DNA of 61,971 bases, filler included, from Sphacelaria rigidula (taxonomy: Eukaryota), in NCBI GenBank assembly GCA_964200075.2. It is 7 parts of 7 records of this genome, joined end to end, with 100 filler letters (N's around TTAATTAATTAA, not from the genome) between each part and the next. Parts side by side here need not be neighbours in the genome. Positions count along the whole stretch, not along the records: positions 1 to 8,769 come from CAXNAA020010154.1; 6 more parts are not named here. One strand, written 5' to 3'. Position 1 is the first letter of the stretch. Every line of letters begins with the position of its first letter. This document shows positions 1 through 50,270 of this stretch, piece after piece. The position numbers and the translations under genes were made by a program. The notes beneath the pieces are model-generated. The model worked only from the letters and a program-made list of their open reading frames with translations. It did no database searches and was not told the DNA's origin.

Positions 1-401
1 AACTAAATCCGAAAAATGGACACAATCCCGAGGAGCGGTGAATTCTCATTTCAAAATACCTTCTCATTTTTCTGGCAACCCTGTGTAAAGAAGTATCCAC
101 GCGATCGAGGGGCATTAGGCCGACAAAACGTCATTGGGCACCATCGCTAAAAGTTTGGGGAAAGCACTATTTTAGGCTTGAACCTCATCTCGTAGGTAAA
201 CCTCAATTCGCACAATTTGTTGTCAACTATAGTCGGCAATATATGTTATACCTTGTGCAGTACATTTCTAACGACGTGTTTGTACCGTCTGTAGAATCTT
301 CGTCTAGGGTCTGGGAGATTTCAACATAACGCAGGATCTGATACATTTCCACAGCGTCCTGACTGATTCTATATGTTAGAGAGACCCTTTACAACAATGA
401 A

Positions 402-842
402 TACGGGATCTTACAAATTGGGGATGGATTTTTTATTTGGGGACGAGAAACCCGGAGAATTGAAATCTTCGTCTTCACACCGAAGCTTCGAAATATGGTT
501 CCATTTCTTCACCAACTGATAGCTATTGACAACTCCTACACGCCATAGAAAGTTGGATTTCGATCACCGAAATATTGAGGTCCTAGGTGAAAATCCAAAC
601 TTGGGGAATTCCGGGTGTCCGAACAGACGCCAAAATGGTTCTGAAAATGCTTTTGCACCAGGGACTCCAACACTTCGATGATCGAAATCCAAATTTCCAT
701 AACGTGTGGCAGTTGTCAACAGCTATCCGTAGGTGGAGAAATAGAACCATATCTCGAAGACGTGGTGTGGATACGAAGGTTTGAGTTCTCCGGGCTTCTC
801 ACCCCCAATAAAAGATCCATCTTCAATATGTAAGATCCCGTG
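402..842. mobile_element. Foldback/MITE-like non-autonomous element with ~190-bp imperfect inverted arms
   Basis: The left arm tacgggatcttacaaattggggatggat...ccggagaa...ttgacaact...ttggatttcgatca is the reverse complement of the right arm tgatcgaaatccaa...agttgtcaa...ttctccgg...atccatcttcaatatgtaagatcccgtg. Termini are (T/C)ACGG...CCGTG, flanked by TGAA/TTAA. Confidence 0.75.
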
Positions 843-2400
843 TTAATACAGCACATCAAGCGATCTCGGGGGAGACGAAACCGTTTTCGCAAGGCCTAAA
901 CACACCCCAGAACAGTGATAGCTACAGCACATGAGAGCGGAAGTGAGTGTGTTTGTGGTGCAGTACAGTCAGTCAAGACATGTCTCATGTTTTAGTTTTT
1001 CGGCTGATTTAAAACGAGCTCTCGGTGTTTGCAGGGTGCCGATCTTCAACGCTCGGACATAGCCGCTGTTTGCACAAATAATTTAATTTAGTACAAAATT
1101 GTCTTCATGTATGGGTCCTGTGCCATTAATTTCGCAACAAGAGAAGCTGATGCATACTGTATATAGTCCGTGTTTAGGTTCTAAAACTAAAAAGCACTGC
1201 AGAACTGCCGTGTTGTCTTGTGTTCTGTGCAGTACTCTGTACTCCATATATCGCTGCAGAAGTGTCTTGTGTTCAGTGTAGTACGCTGTGCTCCATAAAA
1301 TGGGGTCATGTTTTGAGAAGTTTTCGAAAAGTTCTGCTGTTTTTTTTCAAAAGTATCCCGAAAAACACGAGTGTTTTTTGTCACAAAAATCTAATGCCGA
1401 ATCTGGAATAGCCTGAGACAACAACTAATTTGAAAAGTTGGAATACGATGACTCTTGTTCGCGAGAATCGGCGCACATTTGACTTTTTTTTTTGCTTGGC
1501 GCAACACTGGTTCGTTTGGCTTGTTATTCCAACGAGAATTGCTTTGTGACGGTTACACAGCGGTGGAACATACAGGCGGTGCGTTTGGAGAATCCACGAT
1601 GTTCGCGTTGAGGACTTGTAGTGTGTTCCATGGACATTCCTACTTTATCGCCCTACCCCTCAGCTTACTTCAATGAAAGTCTATCCACACGACCTGCAGA
1701 GGACATGTCAACTAGGTCCCATCTGTACGAGATATCAGATAGACCAGAGTGAGGGTCCTATTTGTGTATACAATCATAAACATTTCTGGCGGGTGCGAAC
1801 GACACCTATACTGCTAGATTTTAGTCAACCACGTCTACACAAGGCATACCTAGTATGTGGTGTACATGACAGCAGCAAGTTGATTGCTACAACCTGGAAG
1901 CTAGCAGATTAATAGGGCAGGAAGCAGAGGACAGGCACTAGATTCAGCTATTTATAGCTTTTGTTGAGTTGATACTCATGGACTGCGGTAGCTGGTGCAA
2001 GCGTAGTATTTTCCCGATAAGAGTTGTGTAGATACTCCTAAAATGTCGCTGTTCCCGCACGTACAGCCTGGAGTCTCTGTATAGCTCTCTACTTCGGTAT
2101 ACCTCCGCGGGGGCGACGAAATAGCTAGAGTGTCCGTACAGGAATGTGAGACACTGCGTACGCTGTCGTTTGGGATACACATGCAGGCCACACCCGTATA
2201 AATCAAGGGTCCACGACACCCTGGTGGAACATAGCATTGGGGTATCAGGACCCCACAACCTCACGAGCTCCTCCGCATCGAGAGAGCAAACCAATCCGTA
2301 TCAGCCACTTTCCGTTTGAGTGGGCGGGTCGTGCAAGCTGGCGTCCAGCATATTCCCCGCGTAAACAAAACAAGATCAGTACAAAATACAGAATCATCCA

Positions 2401-4989
2401 TCATCTGTCGGACGCCTCCCCTAGTTCCAACTTCACGCTCGAACCCTCCAACGCCTGTGCTGATTTCACACCAACAAACCCGCCAACAGACCCACTTACA
2501 GTCGCCGACGAAACATACAGAGGTCCTGCACTCACACCACAACTGCTGCTGCTGGAGCTACTCCGACCACCTGCACTGCTAAAACCCCACAAAGGGCCAG
2601 TATGCTTGCTACGCTCTACCATTCCAGCGTCACTGTATATAGGAGAAGGAGCTTCCGCCTCTACCTTCATTCCAGCTCCTACCCTTGGCGCGGAAGACTC
2701 CTCAAGATCAGCCACTGAGGGTGGCTGGCCCGAAAGCAACAGTGGTGTTACACCACTACGCCTGGCAATAGGGCACACACTACCTTCAACACCAACAACG
2801 TCGCTTGTACCAGAACTCCAGCATGGTGCGCGCTTGCGTTTTGTTCCTCGAACGCCAGCAGCGCTTCCTCCACCGCCATCAGTTGTGCTACCGGTGGAGG
2901 TGGCCTTGCCAGTGCTGAGCTCTCCTGTGTCGTATACCGTAGCTGCGTCATGCGCAGTAGGATACTGTCGAAACAACTTTGCCTTATCTAGGACGTCAAT
3001 CTCGAGAATCTGCGGAATTGAGCATTCCCCTTTACTAGACTTGCATCTCACCGGATCCACCTTTCCCGCCATCGCAAGCTGAGGGGAGAAATCTGCGTTC
3101 TCGATTGCGCCAGCAGCATACGACGGTCTTTTCGAGCAGCTCTCATCGCCGCACTTCTCGCTCACCAGACTCGCCATTCCTGCCCTGGCATGCTGAGGGC
3201 AAAACTCCACCTTCTTGCTTCCCACTACACCACAGGACGGCTGCCTGGAGCAGCCCTCGTCGCCGCGCGTCTTTTTCACCACATCCACCATCCCCGCCCT
3301 GGCATGCTGAGAGCAGAATTCCGCCTTTTTGCTTCCCGCCACAACATACGACAGCGTATTCAAGCAGCCCTCGTGGCCGCAGGTCCTGTTCACCACATCC
3401 ACCATTCCAGCCCTCGCATGCTGAGAGCAGTACTCCGCCATCTTGCTCCCCGCTACACCATACGACGGCTTCTTCCAGCAGCCCTGCTCGCCGCATTTCT
3501 TTGTGACCACATTCACCATTCCCACCCTGGCATGCCGAGAGCAGAACTCCGCCTTCTTGCTACCCGCTACACCGTACGACGGCGTCTTGGGGCAGCCCTT
3601 GTCGCCGCACCTCTTCTTCAACACATTCACCATTCCAGCCCTCGCATGCCGAGAGCAGAACTCTGCCTTCTTGCTTCCCGGTACACCATACGACGGCATC
3701 TTGGAGCAACTCTTATCGCCGCACTTCTTGTACACCAGATCCACCATTCCCGCCCTGGCATGCCGAGAGCAGAACTCCGCCTTACTGCTTCCCACTACAC
3801 CATACGACCGCTGCCTGGAGCAGCCCTCGTCGCCGCATTTCTTGCTCAATACATTCACCATTGCCGTACTGGCATGCTGAGAGCAGAACTCCGCCTTCTT
3901 GCTCCCCGCTACACCATACGACGGCATCTTGGAGCAACTCTTATCGCCGCACTTCTTGTACACCACATCGACCATTCCCGCTCTGGCATGCTTCAAGCAG
4001 AACTCCGCCTTACTGCTTCCCGCTACACTATACGACGGCAACTTGGAGCAGCCCTCGTCGCCGCATTTCTTGTTCAATACATTCACCATTGCCGCACTGG
4101 CATGCCGAAAGCAGAACTCTGCCTTCTTGCTCCCCGCTACACCGTACGACGGCTGCCTGGAGCAGCCCTCGTCGCCGCACCTCTTCTTCAACACGTTCAC
4201 CATTCCAGCCCTCGCATGCTGAGAGCAGAACTCTGCCATCTTGGTTCCCGCTTCACCATAGGAAGGCGACTTGGAGCAGCCCTCATCGCCACATTTCTTG
4301 CCGATCACACTCACCATTCCCGCCATGGCATGCCGAGAGCAGAATTCCGCCTTCTTGCTTCCCGCTACACCAAACGATGGGTACTTGAGGCAGCCCTCGT
4401 CGCAGCACCTCTTCTTCAACACGTTCACCATTCCAGCCCTCGCATGCTTCAAGCAGAACTCTGCCATCTTGGTTCCCGCTTCACCATACGACGGCGACTT
4501 GGAGCAGCGCTCGTCACCACATTTCTTGCTCACCAAATCCACCATTCCAGCCCTCGCATGCTGAGAGCAGAACTCCGCCTTCTTGCTCCCCGCTACGCCA
4601 TAGGACCGCCGCGTGGAACAGCCCTCGTGGTAGCACTTCGTCTGCAACACACTCACCATTCCAGTCCTCGCATGCTGAGAGCAGAACTCTGCCTTCCTGC
4701 TTCCCGCTACACCATACGACGGTTTCTTGGAACAGCCCTCGTCGCTACATTTCTTGCTCACCACATCCTCCATTCCAGCCCTGGCATGCTGAGAGCAGAA
4801 CTCTGCCTTCTTGCTTCCCGCCACACCATACGACGGCCTTTTGGAGCAGCCTTCGTCACCGCACTTCTTGCCCGACACTTTCACCATTCCCGCCCTGGCA
4901 TGCTGAAAGCAGAACTCCGCCTTGTAGCCCGGTAAAGCGTACGATGGCCATTTCAAGCAGTCTTCGTTGATGCACTCCCTTTTCCACAT
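2401..4989 (-). CDS. EsV-1-7 cysteine-rich repeat protein (~16 full + 1 degenerate C-x4-C-x16-C-x2-H repeats, low-complexity C-terminal tail with a basic NLS-like motif)
   Basis: Uninterrupted ORF with 38-aa repeats KKCGDEGCSKxPSYGVAGSKKAEFCSQHARAGMVxVV. Likely ATG at 4989 (MWKREC). An upstream polypyrimidine tract plus CAG acceptor on the minus strand (exon starts at 5081) suggests a 5' intron. The tail contains GTKRKR. Confidence 0.88.
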   Translation of the reverse strand: MWKRECINEDCLKWPSYALPGYKAEFCFQHARAGMVKVSGKKCGDEGCSKRPSYGVAGSKKAEFCSQHARAGMEDVVSKKCSDEGCSKKPSYGVAGSRKAEFCSQHARTGMVSVLQTKCYHEGCSTRRSYGVAGSKKAEFCSQHARAGMVDLVSKKCGDERCSKSPSYGEAGTKMAEFCLKHARAGMVNVLKKRCCDEGCLKYPSFGVAGSKKAEFCSRHAMAGMVSVIGKKCGDEGCSKSPSYGEAGTKMAEFCSQHARAGMVNVLKKRCGDEGCSRQPSYGVAGSKKAEFCFRHASAAMVNVLNKKCGDEGCSKLPSYSVAGSSKAEFCLKHARAGMVDVVYKKCGDKSCSKMPSYGVAGSKKAEFCSQHASTAMVNVLSKKCGDEGCSRQRSYGVVGSSKAEFCSRHARAGMVDLVYKKCGDKSCSKMPSYGVPGSKKAEFCSRHARAGMVNVLKKRCGDKGCPKTPSYGVAGSKKAEFCSRHARVGMVNVVTKKCGEQGCWKKPSYGVAGSKMAEYCSQHARAGMVDVVNRTCGHEGCLNTLSYVVAGSKKAEFCSQHARAGMVDVVKKTRGDEGCSRQPSCGVVGSKKVEFCPQHARAGMASLVSEKCGDESCSKRPSYAAGAIENADFSPQLAMAGKVDPVRCKSSKGECSIPQILEIDVLDKAKLFRQYPTAHDAATVYDTGELSTGKATSTGSTTDGGGGSAAGVRGTKRKRAPCWSSGTSDVVGVEGSVCPIARRSGVTPLLLSGQPPSVADLEESSAPRVGAGMKVEAEAPSPIYSDAGMVERSKHTGPLWGFSSAGGRSSSSSSSCGVSAGPLYVSSATVSGSVGGFVGVKSAQALEGSSVKLELGEASDR
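3110..4980 (-). repeat. Coding tandem repeat, 114-bp unit (~17 copies)
   Basis: gcagaactc...accatacgacggc...cagccctcgtcgccgca...accattcc recurs every 114 nt. Confidence 0.95.
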
Positions 4990-6828
4990 TCTGGCGATCC
5001 GCTTTGTCGCGTGGTGTCGTGATGAGAAGTAACTGTTCGCGGTAACAGAATTGGCAGAACGCCGGAGGCTGCAACTGTCAACTGCAGGGGGAAAAGCGAC
5101 GAAAAAAAACACTATCGTCTCACATTAACGGGAAGAGAAGGAGCTACCTGCACCTCCTAAAATGACACTTTACATTAACTGATCGTCATGACTACAGCCC
5201 CGGTGCCCGGGGTAATTCGAGCGAATGGGACTTCCTCACCAGTATGGTAGTACGGATCTGAACTACATAAAGCATCGATATGGTACAAGAGGGTAACGAA
5301 AGCAGACAACCTTGAAGGTATGATCCCAAGTCGTGATTCACCGGGCATGATACATGCAGTGTTACAGAATTCAAGGCTTGTAAAACATTCGCCAACGTTT
5401 TGGACAGTTGCTCTACACTGGCAGTGTACCCGACAACGTTGTGGGAGATCAGTTATACCAACGAAGTCAGGAAAAATCGATCTGAACTCGAAGATACCGG
5501 ACAAGGTTCCGAACTACTGGCTTGGTTTGATCCTGTTTCATTTCACTGCTAGAAATACGACTAAGATAGGGATGTATTTTTGTTCTCAACAGTGGTGCAC
5601 GCGACCGTCGAAAGAAAATTATATCGAAAGCGAATCTGGTCTGTGCACACGCGCGAAAAAGTGTACATATCTGTCGAATCGCAATACACGCGCACATGTG
5701 CTCCCATGATCTCTTCTGTCATATCGGATACGGTCGGAACCAACTGTAATGTATTGTCCTAGTCCCCACTTCAACCACAAGAGAGTGTATATGTTGGGTT
5801 ACCTGATGTTTGCTGAAGTCACTTAAACCTCGGAATTTTCGGCTCGTATCGCGTCTACATGGTGTGCATGGTAGTACATGCTTGTTGTCGGCAGGGTCAG
5901 GGTGTCATGTTAGGAAAGCGCTGGAAGTTGAGCGGGGCGTGAAACTGTCGCTGGCCACAACGAGGCTTCCAGAAAAGTGCTTTGCACATCTGTTGAATGA
6001 GGATATCACGACTGTACAAGATTGGTGCGAACATACTAGATGTCAACATGGCCATAATCGTCGTGGTGAAGATCTATTCCTTTACAGCCCTTGTGAAAAA
6101 TGGCAAACGCCCAGTGAGGGTGAGATATTCGAAACGCACCGACATCTGATCAAATCTTGGGGAAACGTCTTCTAGACTATCAGAATGTCACCATTGTCGG
6201 ACGTACCTCTTAGCCTGATGAGGTGTCAACCCGCCCGTGTCGGACACACATTCTATGGTAAACATGTACCATTCCACCTGCATCCAACACATGCGTTCTA
6301 GAATGAACACGCATTTTACGTATACCACGCAAATAAATGCTACATGAACGGGTATGCTACGTTAGTTCGACACAAACATCTTGGAGGGAACAGGCATTGT
6401 ACATATGTGCGGCACATGCGCTCTCAAGTGAGGAGATGTTTTATGTTGTGTTTTGCCCAACTCGTGGTGTACTGCGGCGGTCGTGGTTCGAGATCAACTG
6501 TGAATGTCTCGTGCAAGTTGACGAAGGAAGTGCCTAAACGGATGGAGAAGGCCGCGCTTCGTCTGCGTTTACAGTGACATCTGATTCCATGCCATATTTA
6601 TGTGACATGTTGCACTTGTCTCCTCCATAATCTTACGAGCTGGTCCAGCTGACAGTGGTTTTTGAAAGTATCCTGGCGATGCGGTTGGTTTTTCGAAGAA
6701 TTAGGCGCTGAAATTTTGACACAAAATTTCACTAGTCGGACGAGTAATTACTCCTCGAAACGAGTGCACTCGTGGATGTTTTTTGAAAACATAACGAGCA
6801 TCGTGTGCTCGAGTCATTACTTTTGTTC

Positions 6829-6990
6829 ACAACGAGCAATGACTCGAGTGTTCGCCCAATTTATTTTTCCCACAACGAGCAATGACTCGTGTGCTCGCCC
6901 AATGAAATATTTTTCCACAACGAGCGATGACTCGAGTGCTCGTCCTATGATATTTTTCCAACAACGAGCAATGATTCGAGTGCTCGCCAT
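6829..6990. repeat. ~44-bp tandem repeat (acaacgagcaatgactcgagtgctcgccca + AT-rich linker), 4 copies
   Basis: Units are directly visible and have a palindromic actcgagt core. Confidence 0.85.
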
Positions 6991-8035
6991 ATGGAGCCTT
7001 TCGAGACCGACCCCCCACCAACACAGGGTTGACCATGTGTTGGTGGAATAATGAAAAAGAAGGGATTGACCTGCCTCATCACGGCGAGGCGAAATTTATC
7101 GACCAGATCCGAACGACCAGCGCGGGAACTGTTGCCGAGTGTGATGTCAGTGCAAAGATCGTGTGGGGGCCCTATCCCTGGCCCAGATAAGCCTTCCCAG
7201 GTATCTAAAGCCAGGACGCTCGGAGCATGGCTTATCGTATCACTTGCATTCAGTATACTGTAGCGTTCCCGGGGTTTTCCAGCAGTTTCCTTGGGTCGCC
7301 AGCCCATACTAAAACGCAATAATTACAATAACACCGGGTGGAGTGGGAAAATCGGTAAGGAGTGTGCATGTCGCGATGTGGTCATTTTCACGAGGCACTA
7401 CACCCAGGTGGGCTGTGGAAGGACAAAAGGAGCAACCGTCATGTATCCTGCTCACCCCTCTGCCGATGACTTGCAGAACACTGTGAACATATATGTAGTG
7501 GGCGACCATGAACAAGCTGTTTAAAGGCAGCTGATCTCCGGCGCTGAGAACTGCCGAGAACGGGCAAGGAAGTATGCAGGGGCAGCTGCTGCTGCAGTCG
7601 GAGAGGCGCACTGCACCGTAATGTACTGTATGTATATGCGCCGCAACGCCCATACCCTTCGAAGAGAATTCGTTGCATGCAACAAAGAAGTGAATGGCGG
7701 CCCACCTCGACCACAAACGGCTGTGTGGTAAGGTGATGGAGACAATAATATCATCCAAAGCCACAAGTGGTGGGCGGCCCGCCGGTCGCCGCATCGTGTT
7801 GGAAGCTCTCTGCGGCAACATATACTGCTTGCTAAATCAGATCTACACTACATCATGCGCACCCTGCACCTGAAAATAGATTGGATGGAACTTTCGGTGT
7901 TCCTCATAACCCTGCGGTTACATACGCGGATCTTCAGCAACATGCCACTGTTTCGTGCCGACGTCACACACGTCATTCCCAACCAGGCACATTGATCGTT
8001 CCGGAGGCCTGGTCCCAAAGGGGGTAATTTTTCCA

Positions 8036-8140
8036 ACAACGAGCAATGACTCGAGTGCTCGCCCAATAACTTTGTTTCCACAACGAGCGATGACTCGAGT
8101 GCTTGCCCAATTAATTTTCACGGCCAACGAGTAATGACCC
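8036..8140. repeat. Second block of the same ~44-bp repeat (2 copies + partial)
   Basis: Same unit as 6829-6990, about 1 kb downstream. Confidence 0.85.
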
Positions 8141-8769
8141 AAGTGATCGCTCTTCTAACTTCACGGTCAACGAGCAGCACAACGAGTGCGAGTGCCATGC
8201 GTCACACTCGTGCTCGTTCGATGTGTCCAACACGTTGATCATCACTGCGCACAACCTTCCTGGGGATGCGAGAAAGACAAAACGAGAAGTGAGAGCGATT
8301 TGAAGACTGCAAAAAAAGTAGGAAACTGCTTTAATTCCGTGATATATATATATATATAAAGGCCAATGGCCTAGAAAAGGTGAACCCTCTCGTTGTTTGC
8401 CCAGGAAATGTACGAAAAATGGCCAGAAGCGCAAAAACAGCCAAGCACGCCATTTTGACCGTTTTCGCTCCGGAGTTTTCACGCACATCGTTCGGGGGGG
8501 GGCATTGGCACCCGGGACTCGACACAAAACGGATAAAAAACATGTTCCTCGAGAGATATGGCCACGCGAAAACGGACATTTTGCCTCCAGAAACCGCTCA
8601 CCTTCTGTAGGCCACATTTCGCCGAGGTATACCTGATCCAGGAGCTCTTCTTCAATCGTACCTTATCAGGGCCACCAATGGGCCGAGAACGTACCTCTGC
8701 TAGGCCATCGCTCTCTACACTGTGCCAGGGGGTCTACGCGCCAACTTCAACCATGGCGCCCACACGTTC

Positions 8770-8869: not shown

Positions 8870-9044
8870 GACCACGCCCCTTTCCCCCGGGCATGGCACC
8901 CGAGTCTCTCCGCATCGACACGATTAACATGAGCTCAGCTCTTGCGAACTTATGCCAACGAGATGGGAAAATGTTCCAAAGCGTTTAGTAGTGACATGTT
9001 TTGTCCGCTGGATCCCCCGCTATTTTGCCTTTCGTTATAACCAG

Positions 9045-9740
9045 CTGTTCCTGACCGAGGGGGCGCTACAACTTCTCGTCGTAGACCTCGACAAGTATTT
9101 CCGGAAGCTGTCTTGTCGGGGAGACGCTGTGTACATCTGGCTGGATGCCCTGTTGTGTCGGTTGCCTGGGTGTGCAGTCTTGGTCGTCGCTACCCACACG
9201 GACCGTTTCGGCAAAAATCGAGGGCAAGTGAAAATTGCTTTGAGGGATCTACGGGATGACATCGATAATCACTTGACATGCAAACGTCGAGAGTGGGAGC
9301 GTGCCGCAGCATTCACGCAAACGGCCAATCAGGAGCGTGGCCGTCCAGCAAGGGAAGCACCTTCCGTCACGATTTGCGGCGTAGTGGAGGCTTCCGGCTG
9401 TGTCGATCATGATCTGAGCCGTATCCGGGATGAGATCTGCAGATTAGCTGGAGAAGGTGGCACAGATTCGAATGGCAAGCGGCTTTTCCCGAACGTCGGT
9501 CAGACGGTACCGGTGTCTTGGGTAAGGGTGTGGGCGATGACGGAGGCCTTGCTCCTGGGCGGTGAGCCCTCAACGGCGGCGAGGTCGATAGGTCGGCCAG
9601 TGGTCCCAATTGCATCCCGCGAAAAGCACAACTTCATCGCATGGGAGGTGATTCTGCAGGAGTGGTTGAAAATAGTGAGCGCCCTTAATCTGACGGCAGA
9701 GGTGGGGCGGACACCTCTCGACAAGGAGCAAGTTCTCAAG
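9045..9740 (+). CDS. ROCO-family GTPase, internal exon: C-terminal half of the Roc domain and start of COR
   Basis: ccag| acceptor and aag|gt donor, phase 0, 232 codons. LFLTEGALQLLVVDL...WLDAL...VLVVATHTD (G4-like T-H-x-D)...VGQTVPVSW (Roc-COR junction-like). Confidence 0.8.
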
Positions 9741-10004
9741 GTGAAAACATGATATGTGTATAAAGTTTGCGACAGACACGTATACCGACACTCGACTGTT
9801 GCGTGGGTGGACGCATCACCTATGCATGAGTGTTGCTCTGTCACAGTGACGGTAACAGTGAATGCTTCGAATTCCTTGTGATCCGAGTTACCGTCGGCGA
9901 TCCAGTCTATGTACATAATCGTACCCGTTGCTTTTTCGCCTTCACGTTATGGCAGTCAACCTTGCTGATCCCGTGCTGTGTGCCCACCCCGGTTGTTTTT
10001 GCAG

Positions 10005-10952
10005 GATGCTCTCAAGATGCGCCAAACGGGAGGCACGCTGTTGGTCGTCTGTGACCTTGTTCATCTTGACCCGTCGTGGATCAATGTACCCCTACAAGCG
10101 CTCCTTGATCACCGCCTAGCAGAAAAGCGGCAAGAGAGTGAATGGATTGAGCAGCTTGGAGGTTACAGCGCAAGTTGTGGAATCCTTCCCTCAGAGCTGA
10201 TGCGACTCCACAGGAACTTCATCAGAACGGGCCGGCTCACGGAAACGTACTTGCACTTTATATGGCGCGAGATTTCAGAGCTTAACTGCCCACGAGTGTT
10301 CGGCCGGATGATCGAGACGATGTCAACATTTGGTGCTATGTTCACGTGTGATCCTAGCCGGGGTGTGGAGAGGGAGCTTTTCTACCCAAGAGTTCTCGAC
10401 TGGATGATCGAGAAGATGCCAATTTTTGGTGCTATGTTCACATCTGATCCTAGCCGGGGTGTGGAGAGGGAGCTACTGGTGCCCGCCCGCCTACCGAGTG
10501 CAGTGGATGGTGACACTCTAGCAGAACTCGAGTCAGCAATTTCTAGAGGTGTCAGGATGCGGTTCGTGATTGAGATTTTTGCCGAGTACATACCCGCGGG
10601 GGTCATCGCCCAGTTCCTCGGGAGCTTTCGTAGGAGCAATCATATTTTGTTCCGCGCATGTTGGAGGCGGGGTGCAGCATTCATGATGAACGGTAGGGAG
10701 CATCTGGTTTGTCTTCACGAACCTACAGCAGAGCCTGTGGCGCGAATCGAGATTAGCATCGCAGGTAGCACCCGTGAGACTGTATCCGACCACGGCTTCG
10801 CTACCATGGAGGCGCTGAACAAGCTGCTGTCGGACAGGTACCCGGGGCTATTGTTTGATGCTTCCGGCGACCCTCAATTCCAGGAGGGCACCGAAGCGTG
10901 GAAGGATAGCTTGGATACCCTACAAGCGCATCTAAAACGTCGAGCGGACCAG
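10005..10952 (+). CDS. ROCO-family GTPase, COR-domain exon
   Basis: ttttgcag| acceptor and cag|gtat donor, phase 0, 316 codons. VHLDPSWI, LLVPARLP, YIPAGVIAQFL and CWRRGA are COR-like motifs. Confidence 0.8.
10287..10478 (+). repeat. In-frame 96-bp (32-aa) tandem duplication within the COR exon
   Basis: CPRVFGRMIETMSTFGAMFTCDPSRGVERELF / YPRVLDWMIEKMPIFGAMFTSDPSRGVERELL. Confidence 0.92.
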
Positions 10953-11397
10953 GTATACCGCATACGGCATATATCTAGTGTTGCCAATGTTTTTAACCTG
11001 TTGCATATGTCCCAATTCTCTCATTTTCGGGGAGTGCCGATCCAAGTTCGTATGGAGATTTAATTTCTCTCACTAAAGCAGGCAGCATTTCCTGCGAAGG
11101 ATGTGTGAACTCGATAATTTGTTTTTGTTTGTCGCGCACTGCGGTGAGGTGGTTGATGCGGACCGCTGTTTCTCGATCCATGTTCTCTCACGCTGTCCCC
11201 AAAGCGAGTGTGCATGTTCACACCATCGAAGTTTCTCTGGACAAAAGATGGCGTGTGATATGCTGTAGGTGGGTGGCAGTGTCGGTCCATGCTGTTTTGT
11301 TCACTATCCTCAGCGTATAGACTACATATGCCGAAACCGATCAAAGGTACCCTTCAACGAGAACATGCATTCGTTTTTTTACTGTTCCGCTACTCAG

Positions 11398-11976
11398 CTT
11401 GAAGCGAAGATAGACAGGGGTGGTCTGCGTGACACGGATCGTCAAATACTGCAGAACCTATCGGTGGATATGGCTCGCTCGAGGTGCCCCATCCCTCGCT
11501 TGGCGTGTCTCCTACCAAAACACGAGGGCACTCTCAGCGATAACGACAGAAGCTTGTCGAAGTGGTCTGACCGGCTACGGGCTTGGTGCGGCGACGGCAA
11601 GAGGGCTGGCAAAGGCATTGTCAGGCGGAAACTACGCCTGTTTTTCATCTGCGCTCATGACTATAGCCTAGCCGAGTGCGGACCTAATGGTCAAGGATAC
11701 AAGGTGAAACAGCTGAGGGAGTGGGCAGCGAAGGCAGTGCCGCTTGCAAAGGTGACCCTGGCCCTCGCGAGTATCACTCTCAAGGTATGCACTGGTTTGT
11801 CTATTCCGACGGATGACGTCGATGCTGCCTTCGGAGACTCCTTGGGGGGCGTAATATCGGATATCGTCGAGGAATCAGGGACTGCAGCTGTGGATGAGAT
11901 GACGACCATTGCGCGAGATGGTCTGGAGAGTGGCGCCGACGGACAGCAGCTGGAACACTTGAGCGAGGACCCAAAG
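11398..11976 (+). CDS. ROCO-family GTPase, C-terminal-region exon
   Basis: tactcag| acceptor and aag|gtgg donor, phase 0, 193 codons, in frame with the preceding exons. Contains PIPRLACLLP...LRLFFICAHDYSLAECGPNGQGYKV...W...A.P. The terminal exon is not resolved. Confidence 0.72.
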
Positions 11977-12472
11977 GTGGGCGTGTACTTCGAGCTGAAG
12001 CGGGTGACGGATATGCATCGAGTTCACGTATGGCCATACCCCCGTGATGACTCGCTAAAATCCAGACATTATCTCAGTAACCATCGATGTAAGTGTCGTG
12101 TCGGAGACGAATGGACCATATTCTGGCACGTGCGATGAAGGCCTTCAAATTTCGCTCCCTGAGCTATCTTGTACAGTTCATTGTGATCGTTTCAAGGTGT
12201 CTGCTCTTTTGGTGTACCCAAGTAGCATACACTGACGGAAGCGCTGGAGTTACAACCAGCACTTGAGATTGACCTGGCAACCACTACCGTTCAGAACTAC
12301 ACACATTAGAGCCGTGAAGTGCAGCTCTGGCCAGTTGATGTTTTTCCAGTTGATGGGAAACACATCAGTGGTGAGCGGCAAAGCCGCGAGCCCCAACGCC
12401 GAAGGCCAAAACAAAATGCGGTGTTTAGATTGTTTTCCCTTCAAAATGTAGATGTGAAAAATGTGACCTCTC

Positions 12473-39666: not shown

Positions 39667-39877
39667 TGTCATGCGTGAGAGGACCGCGTGCTTAGGCGAC
39701 CGCGCCGTAGTTCAAAACACCTCAGGATCGATGTTTTTCGAAACCAATCGGGTCAGTCCGTGGAGGTACCACGCCCCTGACCATAACCCTAACGCTAACC
39801 CTGACCCTAACCCTAACCATAGGGACGTTCAAATTCCGATGCGGTCCTCTAAGCACGCGGTCCTCTCACGCACTACA
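39667..39877 (+). mobile_element. 211-bp MITE with ~37-bp TIRs, 5-bp TSD CCACC and internal (CCCTAA)-like repeats, copy 1
   Basis: ccacc|TGTcatgcgtgagaggaccgcgtgcttag...ctaagcacgcggtcctctcacgcactACA|ccacc. Confidence 0.92.
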
Positions 39878-41861: not shown

Positions 41862-42090
41862 TGTAATGCGTGAGAGGATCGCGTGCTTAGAGGACCGCAT
41901 TGGAATTTGAACATCCCTATGGTTAGGGATAGGGTTAGGGTTAGGGTTAGGGTAGGGGTTAGTGTTGGGGTTAGGGTCAGGGGCGTGGTACCTGCAGGGA
42001 CTGACCCGATTAGTTTTCAAAAACGTCGATCCTAAGGTATTTTGAACTACGACGCGGTCCTCTAGGCACGCGGTCCCCTCACGCATTACA
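41862..42090 (-). mobile_element. 229-bp MITE, copy 3 (three extra telomere-like hexamers), TSD AGCAT/AGCAC
   Basis: agcat|TGTaatgcgtgagagg...cacgcattACA|agcac, with a longer ttaggg tract. Confidence 0.92.
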
Positions 42091-43078: not shown

Positions 43079-43289
43079 TGTAATGCGTGAGAGGATCGCG
43101 TGCTTAGAGGACCGCATGAGAATTTGAACATCATTATGGTGAGGGTTAGGGTTAGGGTCAGTGTTAGGGTTTCGGTCAGGGGCGTGGTACCTCAAGGGAT
43201 TGACCCGATTGGTGTTGAAAAACGTCGACCCTGAGGTGTTTTGAATCACGACGCGGTCGTTCAAGCACACGGTCCTCTCAAGCATTACA
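43079..43289 (-). mobile_element. 211-bp MITE, copy 4, TSD GGACG
   Basis: ggacg|TGTaatgcgtgagagg...caagcattACA|ggacg. Confidence 0.92.
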
Positions 43290-44359: not shown

Positions 44360-47300
44360 ATGACTCCTGATTTGAACTTGACCACATCGGATCATGTAAT
44401 TCTCAATCAGTTGGATCGAGCTCCTTCCCCGCGATTTTCAACACGCACGGACCTACCTTCGGCCGGTTCTAATAGCAACCGCCCCAACATATTTTTGGCT
44501 ATGACCCAACAGCCAAGCTTGCCTACGGAAAGCAGCCCACAACTTTCGCTCCATCATGCCCCGATGCTGACCCCATCCACGCAACTGGACGCAGTTGTGG
44601 TTTCATCCCAAAATGTTTTGGAAGTTCCCCGACCTTTGTCACGGCGAAAGAGAAAGCCCCGTAAGCATGCCCCCCAAGGACGCGCGCGCATCATTACGTA
44701 CACCTCTTTCAAGCGGAAATCCTCGACCTCAATCTCTCCAAAATGCGACGACTTTGAGTTCGACGGCTCTATTAAGTATCCCGGAAGAAACAAAATCAAC
44801 TAATTCTGACGGCACTACTTCATCAATCGACGACTACAGCCCCGCACATTCTGGATCCCCCTTGGACGGTGATCTCTGTCAACCAAGGACGATCATTTAC
44901 GAAATCGCCAATGGTCACTCTGATCGTGCCACACCTGGAGACAATATACCGTCCACCCCCTTCTCTGGTGAGACATCTGACCCAACGGCGGATCACCTGC
45001 CGTGCGTTTTTGCTGTCAGCCCCGCTGATCCTGACCAGTTTACCTTGCCGGAACACGGTCCGGATCTTGTCGGCGGTAAAGTGTCTGTAGATCCGGCCAC
45101 TTTTACTACTCGCGTTGCGATCCATTCCGGTCCAAACGCTACCACGCCTACGAAATGCGTATCCTTCTTGGACAGCAGCAGCCCGCGAACATTTACTCGA
45201 GAATCAACATGGAAACACATGAAACAAACTGGCACTGCTACTGCAGCTTGCGAAACCACCACCAAACCTCGCGTGTGGGGCGGTTTCGGTGATTCTGCCG
45301 CACCACTGACGACACGTAAATCCGTACGTCTCAGTGTACAATTTTTCCACAAAACCACTCGATCTGCCAGCCTGGCAGTCTGGGCATACATTGTCCCCGA
45401 CAGCACAATGTATCACGCCATATTATTGGGCAGAGATAGCTGTATGCGGTTTAATAAACGCACCTACCGCACACGCGTCCACCACTAACGCCACATTCCA
45501 AGCCTTGTGGAGAATTCAACCTCGAGCACTTCGGTACTCTCCACGGCGCCCTGGCCTACCAGAAGAATCCTCAAGCAACCGGGGCTGCTTACCACCTACG
45601 ATACAACGGTAGCGTTGGTATTACACTCTCCGACGACCCCCAACTTTTAGAAGTTGCACTAGTTCGCCGAAATGGCATGCCAGCACTTATGGACCATTAT
45701 CTTGCCGAAATTGTTACCCCGTATTGGCGCACCAGCCGACACAGAACATTTTTGTGTCGGCGGGACAACAACTCCTCCCTCTTACGGGTCATGCTAACTT
45801 GGAACCCGGCGATGGTTTTAGGAATCGCCGCTGCTCCCCTGATGCACATCCCACTCGAGACGTGCGAAACAGAGCCTGCCGCGCCAAACGCCACATATAC
45901 GGCGGAGTCAGTCCATTGTCTCGATGAACCCTATTTCGACCTCGCCTCCGCGACTCCACCCCAGGTCCAGACCGTGGATCCTGCCCAGTCAAATTCCGAT
46001 CCTCCTGCTGAGGTGCTTCAACGCTCATCACCAGATTCTCGGAATAGTTTATCGCACATGTGGAACCAACTGCCGCCACACATGCGCGACATCAATTTTG
46101 ACCTTTATGGGCCCGGCTGGGAACCGGCAGTCATCCGAGAACTCAGTGATGTTCTGCTATAGTACCAAGACCGATTTTCCAGATCCAAGACGGATCTTGG
46201 GCATTGCAAAAGACTACCCTTTGAGGTTACCCTTCAACCCGGCGTCTCACCGATTTCTTCTCCGCCATACCGCACAAACCCAATCCTTACCGAAAAAGTT
46301 AACTCCATCTTGGATGCGTATTTGCGAGCGGGATTAATACAACATTCCTCCTCCCCTTGGGCCTCGCCCCTTGTGGTCGTCCCCCAAAAGGATGGAAACA
46401 TACGCATAACCGTGAATTATCAACGGTTGAAACGCGTCACTGTAGTCGGCATACTTCCGATTCCCCGCATTGATGAAGTCTTCGACTCCTTGGGCGAGGG
46501 CAAAGTATTCAGCACCTTCGACCCTGACACAGTCCCACTGACGGCTTCTTGTACCTCGTCCGGACTCTATGAGTGACTTCGGGTGCCACAAGGCGCCGCC
46601 ACTGCCCCGGGATGCTTCCAACGCTTAATGCAATGAGTCACCGTGGGCCTCGAGTACATCATCATGTACCTGGATGACGCCATCGCTTTCGATGCCTCAC
46701 CCATTGCACATATCTGCACTCTACGAGAATTTCTCTCTCGCCTACGCACGCACGATTTGAAACTGTCTCCATCCAAAGCTCGCCTTGGTGCGACTGACTT
46801 GGATTTTGGGGGGAATTCCATTTCGCCATCAGGCCTGCATCTGGATACAAACAAAGCCAAGGCCATGACTGATTTGCCGATGCCAACTAACATTTCTCAA
46901 CTTCACTTATTGTTGAGCGGGCTATCCCACTACCGCAAAATTTTGCCGCACTTACCTAAACGGATTCGCCCCCTTACTGAGTTACTCAAGGAAGGAGCTG
47001 TGGTTTCCTTCACAACCGAAATGGAGAATATGACCCGCGAAATACTCAAGACGCTTACCGAGAAGCCGGTACTCTGCTTTCCTGATTGGGAGGCAGTACA
47101 AGATGGCTCCCGCCTTTTCCAACCCCACACTGACGCCAGCACAAACGGATTTGGAGGAGTTTTGAATCAATCTTAGCTTGATGTCTCCGTCCGACCCATC
47201 CTCTATATCAGCCGCGCTATCGTGCCCAACGAGCCCGCTAGAACTGGAAGGCGGAGTAATCACTTGGACCATCAAGCGCCTTCGACAATACCTGTTTCAC

Positions 47301-50270
47301 GTGCCCTTTGAGATCTACACGGATCACGGAGCACTCTAACAACTCGCCAAGGTTGGCGACCACAACCCGCGTGTACAACGATGGTTGGAGTTTCGAACAG
47401 CATAGCAGTATACCATTAAGTACCGTCCAGGAAAAACCAACGGAAACGCTGATCTTCTTTCTCGCCTACCTCTGTCGCCTACGGCCGCAGATTGCAGCTT
47501 GGCTTGCCGTTGAACGGAACCCGACAAACCTGGAATTCACGCGATTAGACGATTTTCAACGCCCGTTTACGCCCTCGACCTCCAGTGCCCGGAAACTGGT
47601 ATGCATATGGGAGGACCTCGCCTTCTACCATATGACGCCGTCTTCGATGGGTTAAAGCCCCCCACTTTCGATTTGTCGATTTCCGCACTTTCGTTACTCG
47701 CGCGAAACTCTTCGCGAAGACACCTCCAGTCACCCACCTTGTCTCCGACAACATGCGCTCCCGGTCTGCCGCCCGCACAACACCGTGTGCCCCGCCGCCA
47801 CGGATAACACCTGCAACCCCTACGAGCTACCCAGCACAACTTCAACGGACCAACACGCAACGCTCCGCGACAACTTCTGCACCGTGCACCACGCGCCGCG
47901 GACAATCTTCGCCGCGCACTAATACAGCCCCGCCGCCCACCACGGCGCCGCCAACATTTACCGCTCCCGAGCACGGCACTGACGACTTAGCTCCGGCCTC
48001 CGGGACAGATATTGACGTCGGCATTCCTGCCCCGTCGCCTATTCCCCCGCCGCCTGCCCCGCCATGTTTGGTTGGCTCGCCAGCGGAAGGTTAACTACGC
48101 GAGTTTCTCGCCAGCTACTCCCACCGTGATTGGGCTCGCGAACAAAACGCAGAACCGATATGTCGCGCAGCCATCTGGTACTTACAACTCGACTGTCCAG
48201 TCCCTTTTCCATCCACACTTCTGGCCCCGGTTGGCACACTGCCACCACCAGTTATTTCTGACGTATACGAGCTCGTGCGTAAAGGCACCCTTTTTACTAC
48301 GGATGAAGATGTGCAACAACTCGTGCGTCGGCCCACGTTTTTGACAGGCGCAATTGCCGCCTCAACCACGGGACGCACCGCATGACTACTCAATGACGAA
48401 CCAACGCGCATATATGTGCCATTATTAATGCGCCCCTGGGTCATGAAAGGCTGCCACACAGACTTGTCATGTCACCTTGGCGTCATCCGCACTCTCGCGC
48501 TCTTCGAACGCTTCTACTGGTGGGTTCGCATGGAAATTTCAACCCGCTTCTGGATTCGGCGATGCTTCCAATGCCAAGCTCGAAAATATTCACGACAGAC
48601 AGTACGCTGGCCCGTCATCTCTATGAAACTCCCCAACGAGCCCAGCCACTTTGTTGTGTCCTTTGATTACTTTGGCGTTCTACCGACCACAGGTCGCGGC
48701 AACACCTACATCTTACTCTTCACTGACCGCTTCAGCCGCCACGCGTCCATGTACGCGGTAACCGCCGCGGATTTCACTGCCGGCGGAACGGCCGACATAC
48801 TGGTTCACGATTACATCAAGCATTACGGTTGCCCAAAGCGACTACTTTCAGACAATGGTCAGTAATTTTGCTCAGATTTCTCTGATGAGATTTACAAGCT
48901 CCTGGGCATCCGCAAAATTGCCACGAGCGCCTACCACCCGAACGGTAATGGTGGTACCGAAAGAGTGAATCACACCATGGCCCAGATGCTCTCTATGGTT
49001 GTCAATGACCGCCAAAATGACTGGGACTTACATCTCTCGCACATCATGTTGTCCTACAACAACTCGGTTGATGCCGCCACAGGCCTTTCTCCGAACGAAC
49101 TTCATCTTGGACGTTACCCTCGGCTGCCTATCACCGTGTTTGAGCGACACACGTTCGACGGCCACCAAGGATTGAATCAGGATCAGATATCCTACCACGA
49201 GCTAGCGCACGCGCGACAACGCAAAGCGTTTACCCTCGTGCGCGAACAACACGCTACCAACGCCTCGCGCCTAGAGATATCTAACACTGCTCTCTACAAC
49301 CTCATGCACAAATGCCCTGACTGGAAAGTTGGTAATTGGGTTTGGATCTACAATAGTTTGTCGACCATCCGCCAAGGCACCTGCAAGGCAGCCAACGAAA
49401 CAATTTTGAAGACAAAACTGTGCCTCAATTGGACAGGACCATTCAAGATCCTGACAGTCGGACCTCGTCATCATCACCGGATGAAAAACCCGTTGGTGAC
49501 AAACTGCTCTATCTCAACTTGCCTCGTGACTTCCAGGGCAAGAACACCAAACCCCACGTCTCCGTGCATAGATGTAAACCCTGCACGGACCCGCATGATA
49601 CAAGTGACATGCCCAAGTACCTGCCTGCCGGACTCACACAGTATGTTCTCAATAGCTACTCGACCAAGTCCCCGTCCTACCACGTTACAACCGACGACGT
49701 GACGGAACAGCCCCTTCGATTGAAAGTGTCCTCCAGCTCCGACTACCAGATAACCCGTGGCTGAGGAGGCAAAATCGCTGTCATGTATAAGACACACTGG
49801 CACGGTTCTTGGAGAGCGTCTTGGGAACGCGAATCCGACCTGCAATCGCACCGCCGTGCAATCCTCCTTTACTGGACGCGATCCCAACATCAGCATCTTG
49901 CTCACAACGAGAAATATCGCAACATGCGCCGTGGCGCAGCAGCCCGCAAACTTCACCGCAATCAGGGACTACGCTTCGTCGCAGATGGTTACAAACTTGT
50001 ACCCACCAAGACTTGTAAGACGAAGTTCTTCGCGAACCAGCGACTCACGCCCAAGGGCAGCTACCTTTGGTTCAAAGGCAGCGACAACCTCTGGTAGTTG
50101 GGTCAGACCCACTCCGATAACCTGGTTTCCGCCGACACATACATCGCGCGCTTCATCGATGACCCTGAACCCATACAGCTCAAGCTTCGGCCAGCACTTT
50201 ACACCACCAGCCCATCTGCGCCACGCGGATCCTGGTGCCTCTAGCGCCTCAAGTCGAAAGGACTTTGCCG
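44360..50270 (+). mobile_element. Degenerate Ty3/Gypsy LTR retrotransposon pol (PR-RT-RNaseH-IN-chromo-like), with many stops and frameshifts
   Basis: Protease: FLDSSS...ILLGRD. RT: SPWASPLVVV, PIPRIDE, YLDD. RNase H: HTDAS..GFGGVL. Integrase: H...HLG, CFQCQ, DRFS, SDNG, NGGTERVN, WTGPF. Chromo-like: YKTHWHG...SWERESDL. The domain order RT-RH-IN is Ty3/Gypsy. Confidence 0.95.

What the first reader, a model, noticed from the sequence alone, without database searches (positions are those of the whole stretch)
2401..4989. EsV-1-7 repeat array with a fixed scaffold and hypervariable positions: candidate modular (TALE/ZF-like) recognition protein
Seen: ~17 tandem 38-aa C3H units in one exon. The scaffold (SYG.AG..KAEFC..HA..GMV) is nearly constant. 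The two residues before the P/R-S-Y motif vary from unit to unit (KW, KR, KK, TR, KS, KY, KS, RQ, KL, KM, RQ, KM, KT, KK, NT, RQ, KR), as do the linker residues. The units are basic, and the tail has a GTKRKR NLS-like motif. Known: EsV-1-7 repeats are shared by brown algae and their phaeoviruses (for example the Ectocarpus IMM protein), and their ligand is not established. Inference: a zinc-finger-like array whose variable residues could form a per-repeat nucleic-acid or protein recognition code.
Basis: partly seen in the sequence, partly recalled or inferred. Interest (0 to 1): 0.72.

Follow-up and report, generated by a model that had tools for sequence, protein, structure and literature searches.

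The report
Fast-evolving brown algal zinc-repeat array gene
This brown seaweed gene is one of more than a hundred copies that string together small cysteine-rich repeats, with one position in each repeat changing faster than neutral drift allows, which makes it a likely but untested DNA-reading regulator built much like the zinc-finger repressors of animals.

Summary
4989-2401 (-) encodes 862 aa with 17 tandem 38-aa EsV-1-7 units (PF19114); 15 keep all four Cys/His ligands.

The gene belongs to a large, young family: its tail matches 106 contigs, and the 61 loci studied carry 6-24 units each.

Across 703 units, position 10 (just before P-S-Y) is positively selected (omega 2.0-2.7, p<=1.5e-5). 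Position 9 is purified. Linker position 37 is fast, but passes only two of three tests. So the signal is one clear variable residue, not a TALE-like pair.

The tail evolves neutrally except for an NLS-like motif and two psi-K-x-E SUMO-type motifs (48 of 56 tails have two or more; shuffles average 0.15).

In 64 of 120 listed homologues, probably mostly giant-viral, the same repeats sit directly before a Vsr/PD-(D/E)xK-like nuclease motif. This points to DNA as the ligand.

Best reading: a nuclear, modular DNA-binding regulator family, analogous to KRAB zinc-finger proteins. Binding, any code and the targets are untested. The orthologue-conservation test for a code was mostly negative.

The parts
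2401..4989 (-). Coding sequence, 862 aa, in one exon
   Evidence: paralogues have Met at about the same place
4867..4977 (-). Unit 1, 37 aa (C-x4-C-x15-C-x2-H)
3271..4866 (-). Units 2-15: fourteen canonical 38-aa EsV-1-7 units (C-x4-C-x16-C-x2-H). Position-10 residues R K R S Y S Q L M Q M T K T
3043..3270 (-). Units 16 and 17, degenerate (metal ligands partly lost)
2404..3042 (-). Low-complexity C-terminal tail; the part outside the three motifs evolves neutrally (pN/pS 1.04)
2830..2847 (-). GTKRKR, NLS-like motif (aa 715-720)
   Evidence: NLS function inferred
2659..2670 (-). MKVE, psi-K-x-E SUMO-type motif 1 (aa 774-777)
   Evidence: consensus as in PMC7915335
2425..2436 (-). VKLE, psi-K-x-E SUMO-type motif 2 (aa 852-855)
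5033..5034 (-). Probable splice acceptor AG (exon from 5032); a second candidate AG lies at 5083-5082
   Evidence: One contig of run X1 (RNA by guess only) leaves the window at 5034 with 28 unmatched letters, where DNA-like runs X5 and X7 go on; weak
5035..6634 (-). Upstream non-coding region (intron/promoter) shared at 75-86% identity with 10-17 of 60 paralogues; duplicated together with the gene

Best explanation
The gene encodes a nuclear, modular, sequence-selective DNA-binding protein of a lineage-expanded brown algal family. The family works like tandem zinc-finger regulators (KRAB-ZFP, ZAD-ZNF) but uses a different module. SHOWN: array anatomy, family expansion, per-gene unique arrays, positive selection at position 10, conserved NLS-like and psi-K-x-E motifs in an otherwise neutral tail, and nuclease-motif fusion in homologues. 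INFERRED: each unit binds one Zn through C2/C7/C24/H27 and forms a small beta-hairpin module. The basic array (+3.3 per unit) lies along DNA. Position 10, possibly with position 37 of the preceding linker as its cross-strand neighbour, touches bases, while K9/P11/S12/Y13 make constant contacts. The tail brings the protein to the nucleus, and its SUMOylation recruits SIM-bearing chromatin cofactors. MORE SPECULATIVE (about 0.3): the targets are fast-changing transposons or integrated viruses, which would explain the selection.
For: Selection at position 10: MST pN/pS 1.96; 2.06 [1.82-2.30] on close edges and 2.07 after re-phasing. Neutral simulations with and without conversion never exceeded 1.56 in 6 runs. 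FEL-like omega 2.0, p=1.5e-5, the only significant positive column of 33 tested; 2.69 with the column left out of the tree. Single-nucleotide changes only: 173 nonsynonymous vs 23 synonymous, p=2e-7. Position-10 residues are R29 K19 Q17 H13% here and R24 Q18 T15 I12 K10% in nuclease-fused homologues. 64 of 120 listed homologues end in an RPD..E-x-D-E-x-Q-H domain. Fold hits include giant-virus proteins labelled 'Endonuclease'. That domain's nearest named clusters are PvuRts1I-like and DUF559 nucleases (leads, score below 0.9), and the same domain occurs in clusters bearing Zf_WRKY19 (55% of members) or zf-C2H2 (16%). An Ectocarpus Mariner transposase has an N-terminal EsV-1-7 domain (PMC12477816). 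Two or more psi-K-x-E motifs in 48 of 56 tails vs a shuffle mean of 0.15. Coupling of 1-8 and p37-10 fits one hairpin register (p37-10 ranks 32 of 1081).
Against: No binding data exist, and no solved structure resembles the unit. Orthologue conservation of positions 10+37 was not above other variable columns in the unfiltered tests. In one viral group of 14, positions 9, 11 and 12 were better conserved per repeat than position 10. Position 37 is not significant in the FEL-like test (omega 1.0-1.2). The nuclease identity rests on a motif and on leads: Pfam, PHROGs and NCBIfam gave only weak hits (Hjc E about 0.007-0.009 in one protein), and there was no PDB hit. AlphaFold pTM is 0.35, so the arrangement of units is unknown, and I could not inspect coordinates. 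Diversifying selection also marks brown algal protein-ligand receptors (PMC3341825 abstract). Units share history, so the p-values are optimistic.
Confidence: 0.55

Rival explanations
1. Protein-recognition array: an intracellular immune-like receptor or adaptor whose variable residues track pathogen or viral proteins, like brown algal ROCO-LRR and NB-ARC-TPR repeats.
For: Birth-and-death and diversifying selection are described for those families (PMC3341825 abstract). An earlier scan note reports one unit fused to a viral RPB2 (not tested here). The ligand of IMM is unknown.
Against: No signalling domain is present. The units are basic (+3.3). Position-10 residues are mostly R/K/Q/H/N and only 10% hydrophobic. 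The repeat occurs fused to a nuclease motif and to a transposase. The tail motifs are of nuclear type.
Confidence: 0.17
2. RNA-binding array read one unit per nucleotide (PPR/PUF-like), acting on nuclear transcripts.
For: Basic C3H units with one dominant variable residue. CCCH-type fingers often bind RNA (recalled).
Against: The fusion partners are DNA enzymes: a Vsr/PD-(D/E)xK-like domain and a transposase. No transit peptide precedes the array; unit 1 starts at residue 5.
Confidence: 0.12
3. Largely dispensable array: non-specific DNA binding or little function, with copy number and arrays driven by duplication, unequal crossing-over and conversion, and variability at positions 10/37 due to relaxed constraint or a local mutational hot spot.
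For: The tail is neutral outside its motifs (pN/pS 1.04). 3 of 61 loci are split across frames, and 10 of 110 tail matches contain stops. 240 of 702 edges differ by 2-3 nucleotides at position 10. EsV-1-7 genes are mostly peripheral in co-expression networks.
Against: Relaxed constraint gives omega of 1, not 2-2.7. The excess persists with single-nucleotide changes only and is not produced by conversion simulations (max 1.35). Metal ligands are kept in 98-99% of 770 in-register units (the walk starts from intact units, so this is biased upward).
Confidence: 0.16

Closest known systems
EsV-1-7 domain family (Pfam PF19114 / IPR043822; Ectocarpus IMMEDIATE UPRIGHT; EsV-1 gene 7)
   Same: Same 38-aa Cys/His repeat. 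The family is known to be expanded (31-335 members per species, tandem clusters) and has been hypothesised to be zinc-finger transcription factors.
   Different: IMM has five repeats plus a unique N-terminal domain and is conserved across orders. This subfamily has 6-24 units, no other domain, a motif-bearing tail and a positively selected position. I found none of this described in the passages read.
KRAB (and ZAD) tandem C2H2 zinc-finger proteins
   Same: Long array in one exon, lineage-specific birth and death, diversifying selection at a fixed within-repeat position, degenerate end units (KZFP features recalled), and a link to SUMO-dependent repression (PMC7915335).
   Different: Different module (C3H, 38 aa, no recognition helix in the model). 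No KRAB domain. The putative effector is a disordered C-terminal tail with its own psi-K-x-E sites. Ectocarpus lacks H3K9me and H3K27me3.
TAL effectors
   Same: Near-identical tandem units with variation concentrated at a fixed position.
   Different: TALE units are 33-35-aa helical hairpins with an adjacent residue pair (recalled). Here the units bear metal ligands, are beta/loop, and only one of the two adjacent residues varies.
EDxHD homing endonucleases (I-Bth0305I) and giant-virus EsV-1-7-nuclease fusions
   Same: Repeated N-terminal DNA-binding modules plus a C-terminal Vsr-like nuclease; the viral homologues use this repeat in that place.
   Different: The window gene has no nuclease domain; a viral nuclease query found nothing in G000 (one query only).
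Brown algal ROCO-LRR and NB-ARC-TPR candidate immune receptors
   Same: Birth-and-death and diversifying selection on repeats (abstract).
   Different: Those have one exon per repeat, exon shuffling and signalling domains. Here all units lie in one exon and no such domain is present.

Membership tests
EsV-1-7 (PF19114) | Profile match above the gathering score | tested here: met
   788 bits vs cut-off 25, 16 stretches
EsV-1-7 (PF19114) | C-x4-C-x16-C-x2-H units in tandem at about 38 aa | tested here: met
   14 exact units, one x15 unit, two degenerate
EsV-1-7 (PF19114) | Zinc binding by the four ligands | not testable with these tools
   Ligands retained in 98-99% of in-register units; metal not measured
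IMM orthologues | Unique N-terminal domain plus five repeats | tested here: not met
   The array starts at residue 5 and has 17 units; definition
KRAB/C2H2 tandem zinc-finger proteins | C2H2 28-aa finger with recognition helix | tested here: not met
   C3H, 38 aa; no helix of 4 or more residues in the model; no zf-C2H2 Pfam hit
KRAB/C2H2 tandem zinc-finger proteins | KRAB or another folded effector domain | tested here: not met
   No such Pfam hit; tail neutral apart from short motifs
KRAB/C2H2 tandem zinc-finger proteins (works-like) | Lineage-specific expansion with positive selection at fixed within-repeat positions | tested here: met
   106 contigs; position 10 omega 2.0-2.7
TAL effectors | 33-35-aa helical repeats with an adjacent variable di-residue | tested here: not met
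   38-aa non-helical units; position 9 omega 0.45
Code-bearing repeat proteins (TALE/PPR/ZF) | Code residues differ within an array but are conserved between orthologous units | tested here: inconclusive
   Negative in 8 algal-like and 10 nuclease-fused pairs; position 10 at 30/33, p=0.035, in 5 of those 8 pairs chosen afterwards for equal unit number
Code-bearing repeat proteins (TALE/PPR/ZF) | Sequence-specific binding that changes on repeat swap | not testable with these tools
   needs experiment
EDxHD/Vsr-like homing endonucleases | C-terminal nuclease domain | tested here: not met
   Absent from the window protein; present as a motif in 64 of 120 homologues
Transposon-borne gene | Fixed element ends shared by copies | tested here: inconclusive
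   Flank homology fades at different places among paralogues and no common termini were seen; contigs are short

The most novel reading that the evidence does not exclude
EsV-1-7 repeats are a further programmable nucleic-acid-reading scaffold, shared with giant-virus repeat-guided nucleases. Brown algae expanded it into a KRAB-ZFP-like surveillance system of over a hundred SUMO-tailed readers. In these readers position 10 (with linker position 37) sets base preference unit by unit, and they guide silencing of transposons and endogenous viruses in a lineage that lacks DNA methylation, H3K9me and H3K27me3.
Probability: 0.25. Interest if true: 0.92.

Novelty: new variant of a known kind. Interest (0 to 1): 0.7.

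Why it matters
EsV-1-7 genes form the largest orthogroup in brown algae and include a developmental regulator, yet their ligand is unknown. How brown algae silence transposons is described as largely unknown (PMC12477816).

This analysis names one residue per repeat (position 10), a second candidate (37) and two tail lysines (K775, K853) to mutate. It also supplies hundreds of natural unit variants, which makes the question directly testable. A convergent KZFP-like system in a stramenopile would be a strong case of parallel evolution, and a decodable 38-aa DNA-binding unit would be a new engineering scaffold.

Tried and rejected
Single-sequence AlphaFold failed (pLDDT 38). The alignment-based model (pLDDT 85, pTM 0.35) matched nothing in the PDB by Foldseek (best E 0.95) or VIA-align (0 chains at Z>=2). 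A multi-repeat query with uncertain unit arrangement weakens these searches, so a new fold is not shown.

Sequence profiles of the array and of the nuclease-fused proteins found no solved relative. tblastn of one nuclease-fused protein against phage records gave no match. A viral nuclease query gave no match in G000 ('not found with this query'). The viral-contig scan returned one locus from 9 candidates.

No listed run is on record as RNA. Coverage of 2323-5034 by X1 and X4, with little or none at 1466-2051 and 5275-6446, is only a hint: both runs are from one study, and holders cover the gene they were found with.

Rejected: a two-residue RVD at positions 9-10; IMM orthology; a transposon with defined ends (not seen). 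The Phe_ZIP Pfam hit (0 stretches) was treated as a repeat artefact. 633 code 4-mers with only 1 shared between genes shows individuality, but is expected from 122 pair types and is no evidence of a code.

The original family paper (Macaisne et al. 2017) was not held, so I saw it only through citing papers. Supplements of the bioRxiv papers were not seen; they may already list this gene or discuss variable positions.

Full report
1. Observation. The minus-strand ORF 4989-2401 gives 862 aa, with a 114-bp tandem period and PF19114 at E 4.6e-244. I number each unit K1 C2 x4 C7 S8 K9 X10 P11 S12 Y13 ... C24 x2 H27 ... M32 V33 x V35 x X37 K38. Units 2-15 are canonical, unit 1 is one residue short, and units 16-17 have lost ligands. 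In units 2-16 only positions 10 (2.92 bits) and 37 (2.57 bits) are highly variable; position 9 has 1.38 bits. The host is a brown alga by inference: the closest named proteins are labelled Sphacelaria rigidula and Ectocarpus.

2. Gene structure. The coding region has no intron. One contig of run X1 matches 4894-5034 and carries 28 further letters where DNA-like runs continue, at an AG (5034-5033). It differs from the window by one substitution and one gap, so it may be an allele or a close paralogue. X1 is RNA by guess only, so splicing and expression are hints. About 1.8 kb upstream is shared with 10-17 paralogues, and homology among paralogues fades at different points. This fits whole-gene duplication rather than retroposition or an element with fixed ends.

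3. Family. A four-unit query gave 213 matches from 150 scored of 1930 candidates. The tail gave 110 matches on 106 contigs, 10 with stops. A second tail type seen is mostly not among these, so 106 is a lower bound. I fetched 60 of the 69 other contigs in the 150 rows listed. With the window these 61 loci hold 6-24 intact units each, and 3 are split across frames. Even the closest paralogue (L032, 86% identical over 3.2 kb upstream) has a different unit number and order.

4. Selection. Of 829 intact units I used the 703 that are followed by another intact unit at 38 aa. Ligand columns are invariant by this filter and were not tested. Positions 10 or 37 were the most variable column in 33 of 45 arrays with 8 or more units. 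On leave-column-out spanning trees, pN/pS against the global synonymous rate was 1.96 for position 10 and 1.79 for 37; all other columns were 1.24 or less, and position 9 was 0.63. This held for close, distant, within-gene and between-gene edges and after re-phasing the unit (2.07 and 1.63). Six neutral simulations, three with conversion, gave column maxima of 1.28-1.56. A per-column codon likelihood test on 33 columns found one significantly positive column, position 10 (omega 2.0, p=1.5e-5; 2.69 with the column left out of the tree). Position 37 gave 1.19 and 1.02 (not significant), and position 9 gave 0.45. Counting only single-nucleotide codon changes in 9 columns, positions 10 (173:23) and 37 (212:26) exceeded neutral expectation at p about 2-5e-7; positions 6 and 26 did so weakly (0.007, 0.047). 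Position 10 thus passes three tests and position 37 two. Units are not independent and these are my own implementations, so the p-values are indicative.

5. Tail. In 48 of 56 tails the last 190 aa hold two or more psi-K-x-E motifs; 500 shuffles gave a mean of 0.15 and a maximum of 2. Their K and E are the best-conserved tail columns. In 33 other non-nuclease homologues picked by hand, 16 have at least one such motif (shuffle mean 3.0, maximum 8). For the window against 14 close paralogues, pN/pS was 0.23 in the three motifs (chosen for their conservation, so partly circular) and 1.04 in the rest. psi-K-x-E is the SUMO consensus, and SUMO links KRAB-ZFPs to heterochromatin (PMC7915335, passages). 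SUMOylation here is inferred, not shown.

6. Homologues. Of 145 hits, 120 were listed, and 64 of these end in an RPD-x-E-x-D-E-x-Q-H domain directly after 4-14 repeats. 9 of 54 further hits also have it. Their viral origin is inferred from Atlas clusters (mostly Nucleocytoviricota) and fold hits labelled 'Endonuclease' from Faunusvirus, cedratvirus and pithoviruses. The domain's nearest named clusters are PvuRts1I-like (0.89) and DUF559 (0.86), which are leads only. Structurally similar domains sit in clusters with Zf_WRKY19 (55% of members) or zf-C2H2 (16%). Family libraries gave only weak Hjc hits and a weak 'homing endonuclease' PHROG in 2 of 48. The layout parallels I-Bth0305I: N-terminal DNA-binding repeats plus a Vsr-like nuclease (PMC3239194, passages). 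Residue spectra at positions 10 and 37 are alike in the alga and in these proteins. I found this fusion before seeing that earlier scan notes had reported it; those notes are not independent support.

7. Structure. With a 110-row alignment, eight units model at pLDDT 85 with short strands at positions 13-15 and 32-34 and no helix of 4 or more residues. pTM is 0.35, so the superstructure is undetermined. There is no PDB match. Coupling analysis on 432 diverse windows put 1-8 and p37-10 among the top 32 of 1081 pairs (p37-10 rank 50 when own-genome units were added). This fits one hairpin register around the C2-C7 knuckle, so the two variable residues may be neighbours (weak, z about 2). I could not inspect coordinates.

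8. Tests against a code. Between putative orthologous units, positions 10+37 were not more conserved than twelve other variable columns: 66/92 vs 394/552 in 8 non-nuclease pairs and 49/118 vs 298/708 in 10 nuclease-fused pairs. Keeping the 5 of 8 pairs with equal unit number, a filter chosen afterwards, position 10 was identical in 30 of 33 units against 11% within arrays (p=0.035 uncorrected), while position 37 was not special. In one group of 14 nuclease-fused proteins, positions 9, 11, 12 and 37 were better conserved per repeat than 10. A simple one-to-one code is therefore not established; recognition may use the whole 9-13 segment.

9. Mechanism and rivals. Most likely (0.55): a nuclear modular DNA reader with a SUMO-modified tail, analogous to tandem zinc-finger regulators. 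A transposon or virus target is the natural reason for positive selection but has no direct evidence here (about 0.3). Rivals: protein-ligand receptor (0.17), largely dispensable array (0.16), RNA reader (0.12).

10. Literature. [quoted passage not shown] Seen as abstract and outline: PMC3341825. Not seen: Macaisne et al. 2017 and all supplements. Searches showed no paper on site-specific selection, SUMO motifs or nuclease fusion for this repeat. The library lacks most subscription journals, and I read only passages, so absence from print is not proven.

11. Verdict. A real, intact member of a known family. The family-level evidence newly points to DNA recognition centred on one selected residue per unit, with a regulator-type tail. 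New variant of a known kind; interest 0.70.

Noticed in passing
window 8928-12138 (+): Three open exon-like frames that look like the Roc-COR part of a ROCO gene; only a weak LRRK2 Roc hit (E 0.7) and no Pfam hit. The label is partly recalled. They lie on a different contig from the array gene.
   Followed up: partly
window 44571-49702 (+): Fragmented LTR-retrotransposon pol: RT, RNase H-like, integrase zinc-binding (E 4e-12) and core domains.
   Followed up: partly
window 1-1465 and 6740-8769: Very high-copy repeats flank the gene (depth table), with 43-45-bp tandem units at 6828-6988 and 8036-8150. Homology with most paralogues stops at about 6634, probably at an insertion shared with L032.
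   Followed up: partly
window 39775-39818, 41921-41982, 43134-43181: Short telomere-like CCCTAA / GGTTAG runs inside the scaffold.
   Followed up: no
window 4524-4183 and 3954-3613: Internal duplications in the array: units 5 and 7 differ by 9 of 114 nt, units 10 and 12 by 10, against about 20 for typical pairs.
   Followed up: partly
window 5016: A 1-base insertion upstream of the ATG in contigs of runs X1 and X7 fits this stretch being untranslated. Many paralogues have their Met three codons further upstream.
   Followed up: partly
L051, L056, L067, L070, L072, L073, L075-L078, L082, L088, L089: A second subfamily with a different tail (basic KKR motif late, psi-K-x-E motifs such as VKxE and LKME) but the same overall layout.
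   Followed up: partly
L091:2575-3927: Viral gene with shortened C-x-C ... CxxC versions of the repeat (PF19114, 8 stretches) before a divergent nuclease-like domain, next to an ABC-type ATPase gene resembling eEF3 (the eEF3 label is recalled).
   Followed up: no
P0109: EsV-1-7 repeats in one predicted Ectocarpus protein with a copia gag domain; may be a gene-model fusion.
   Followed up: no
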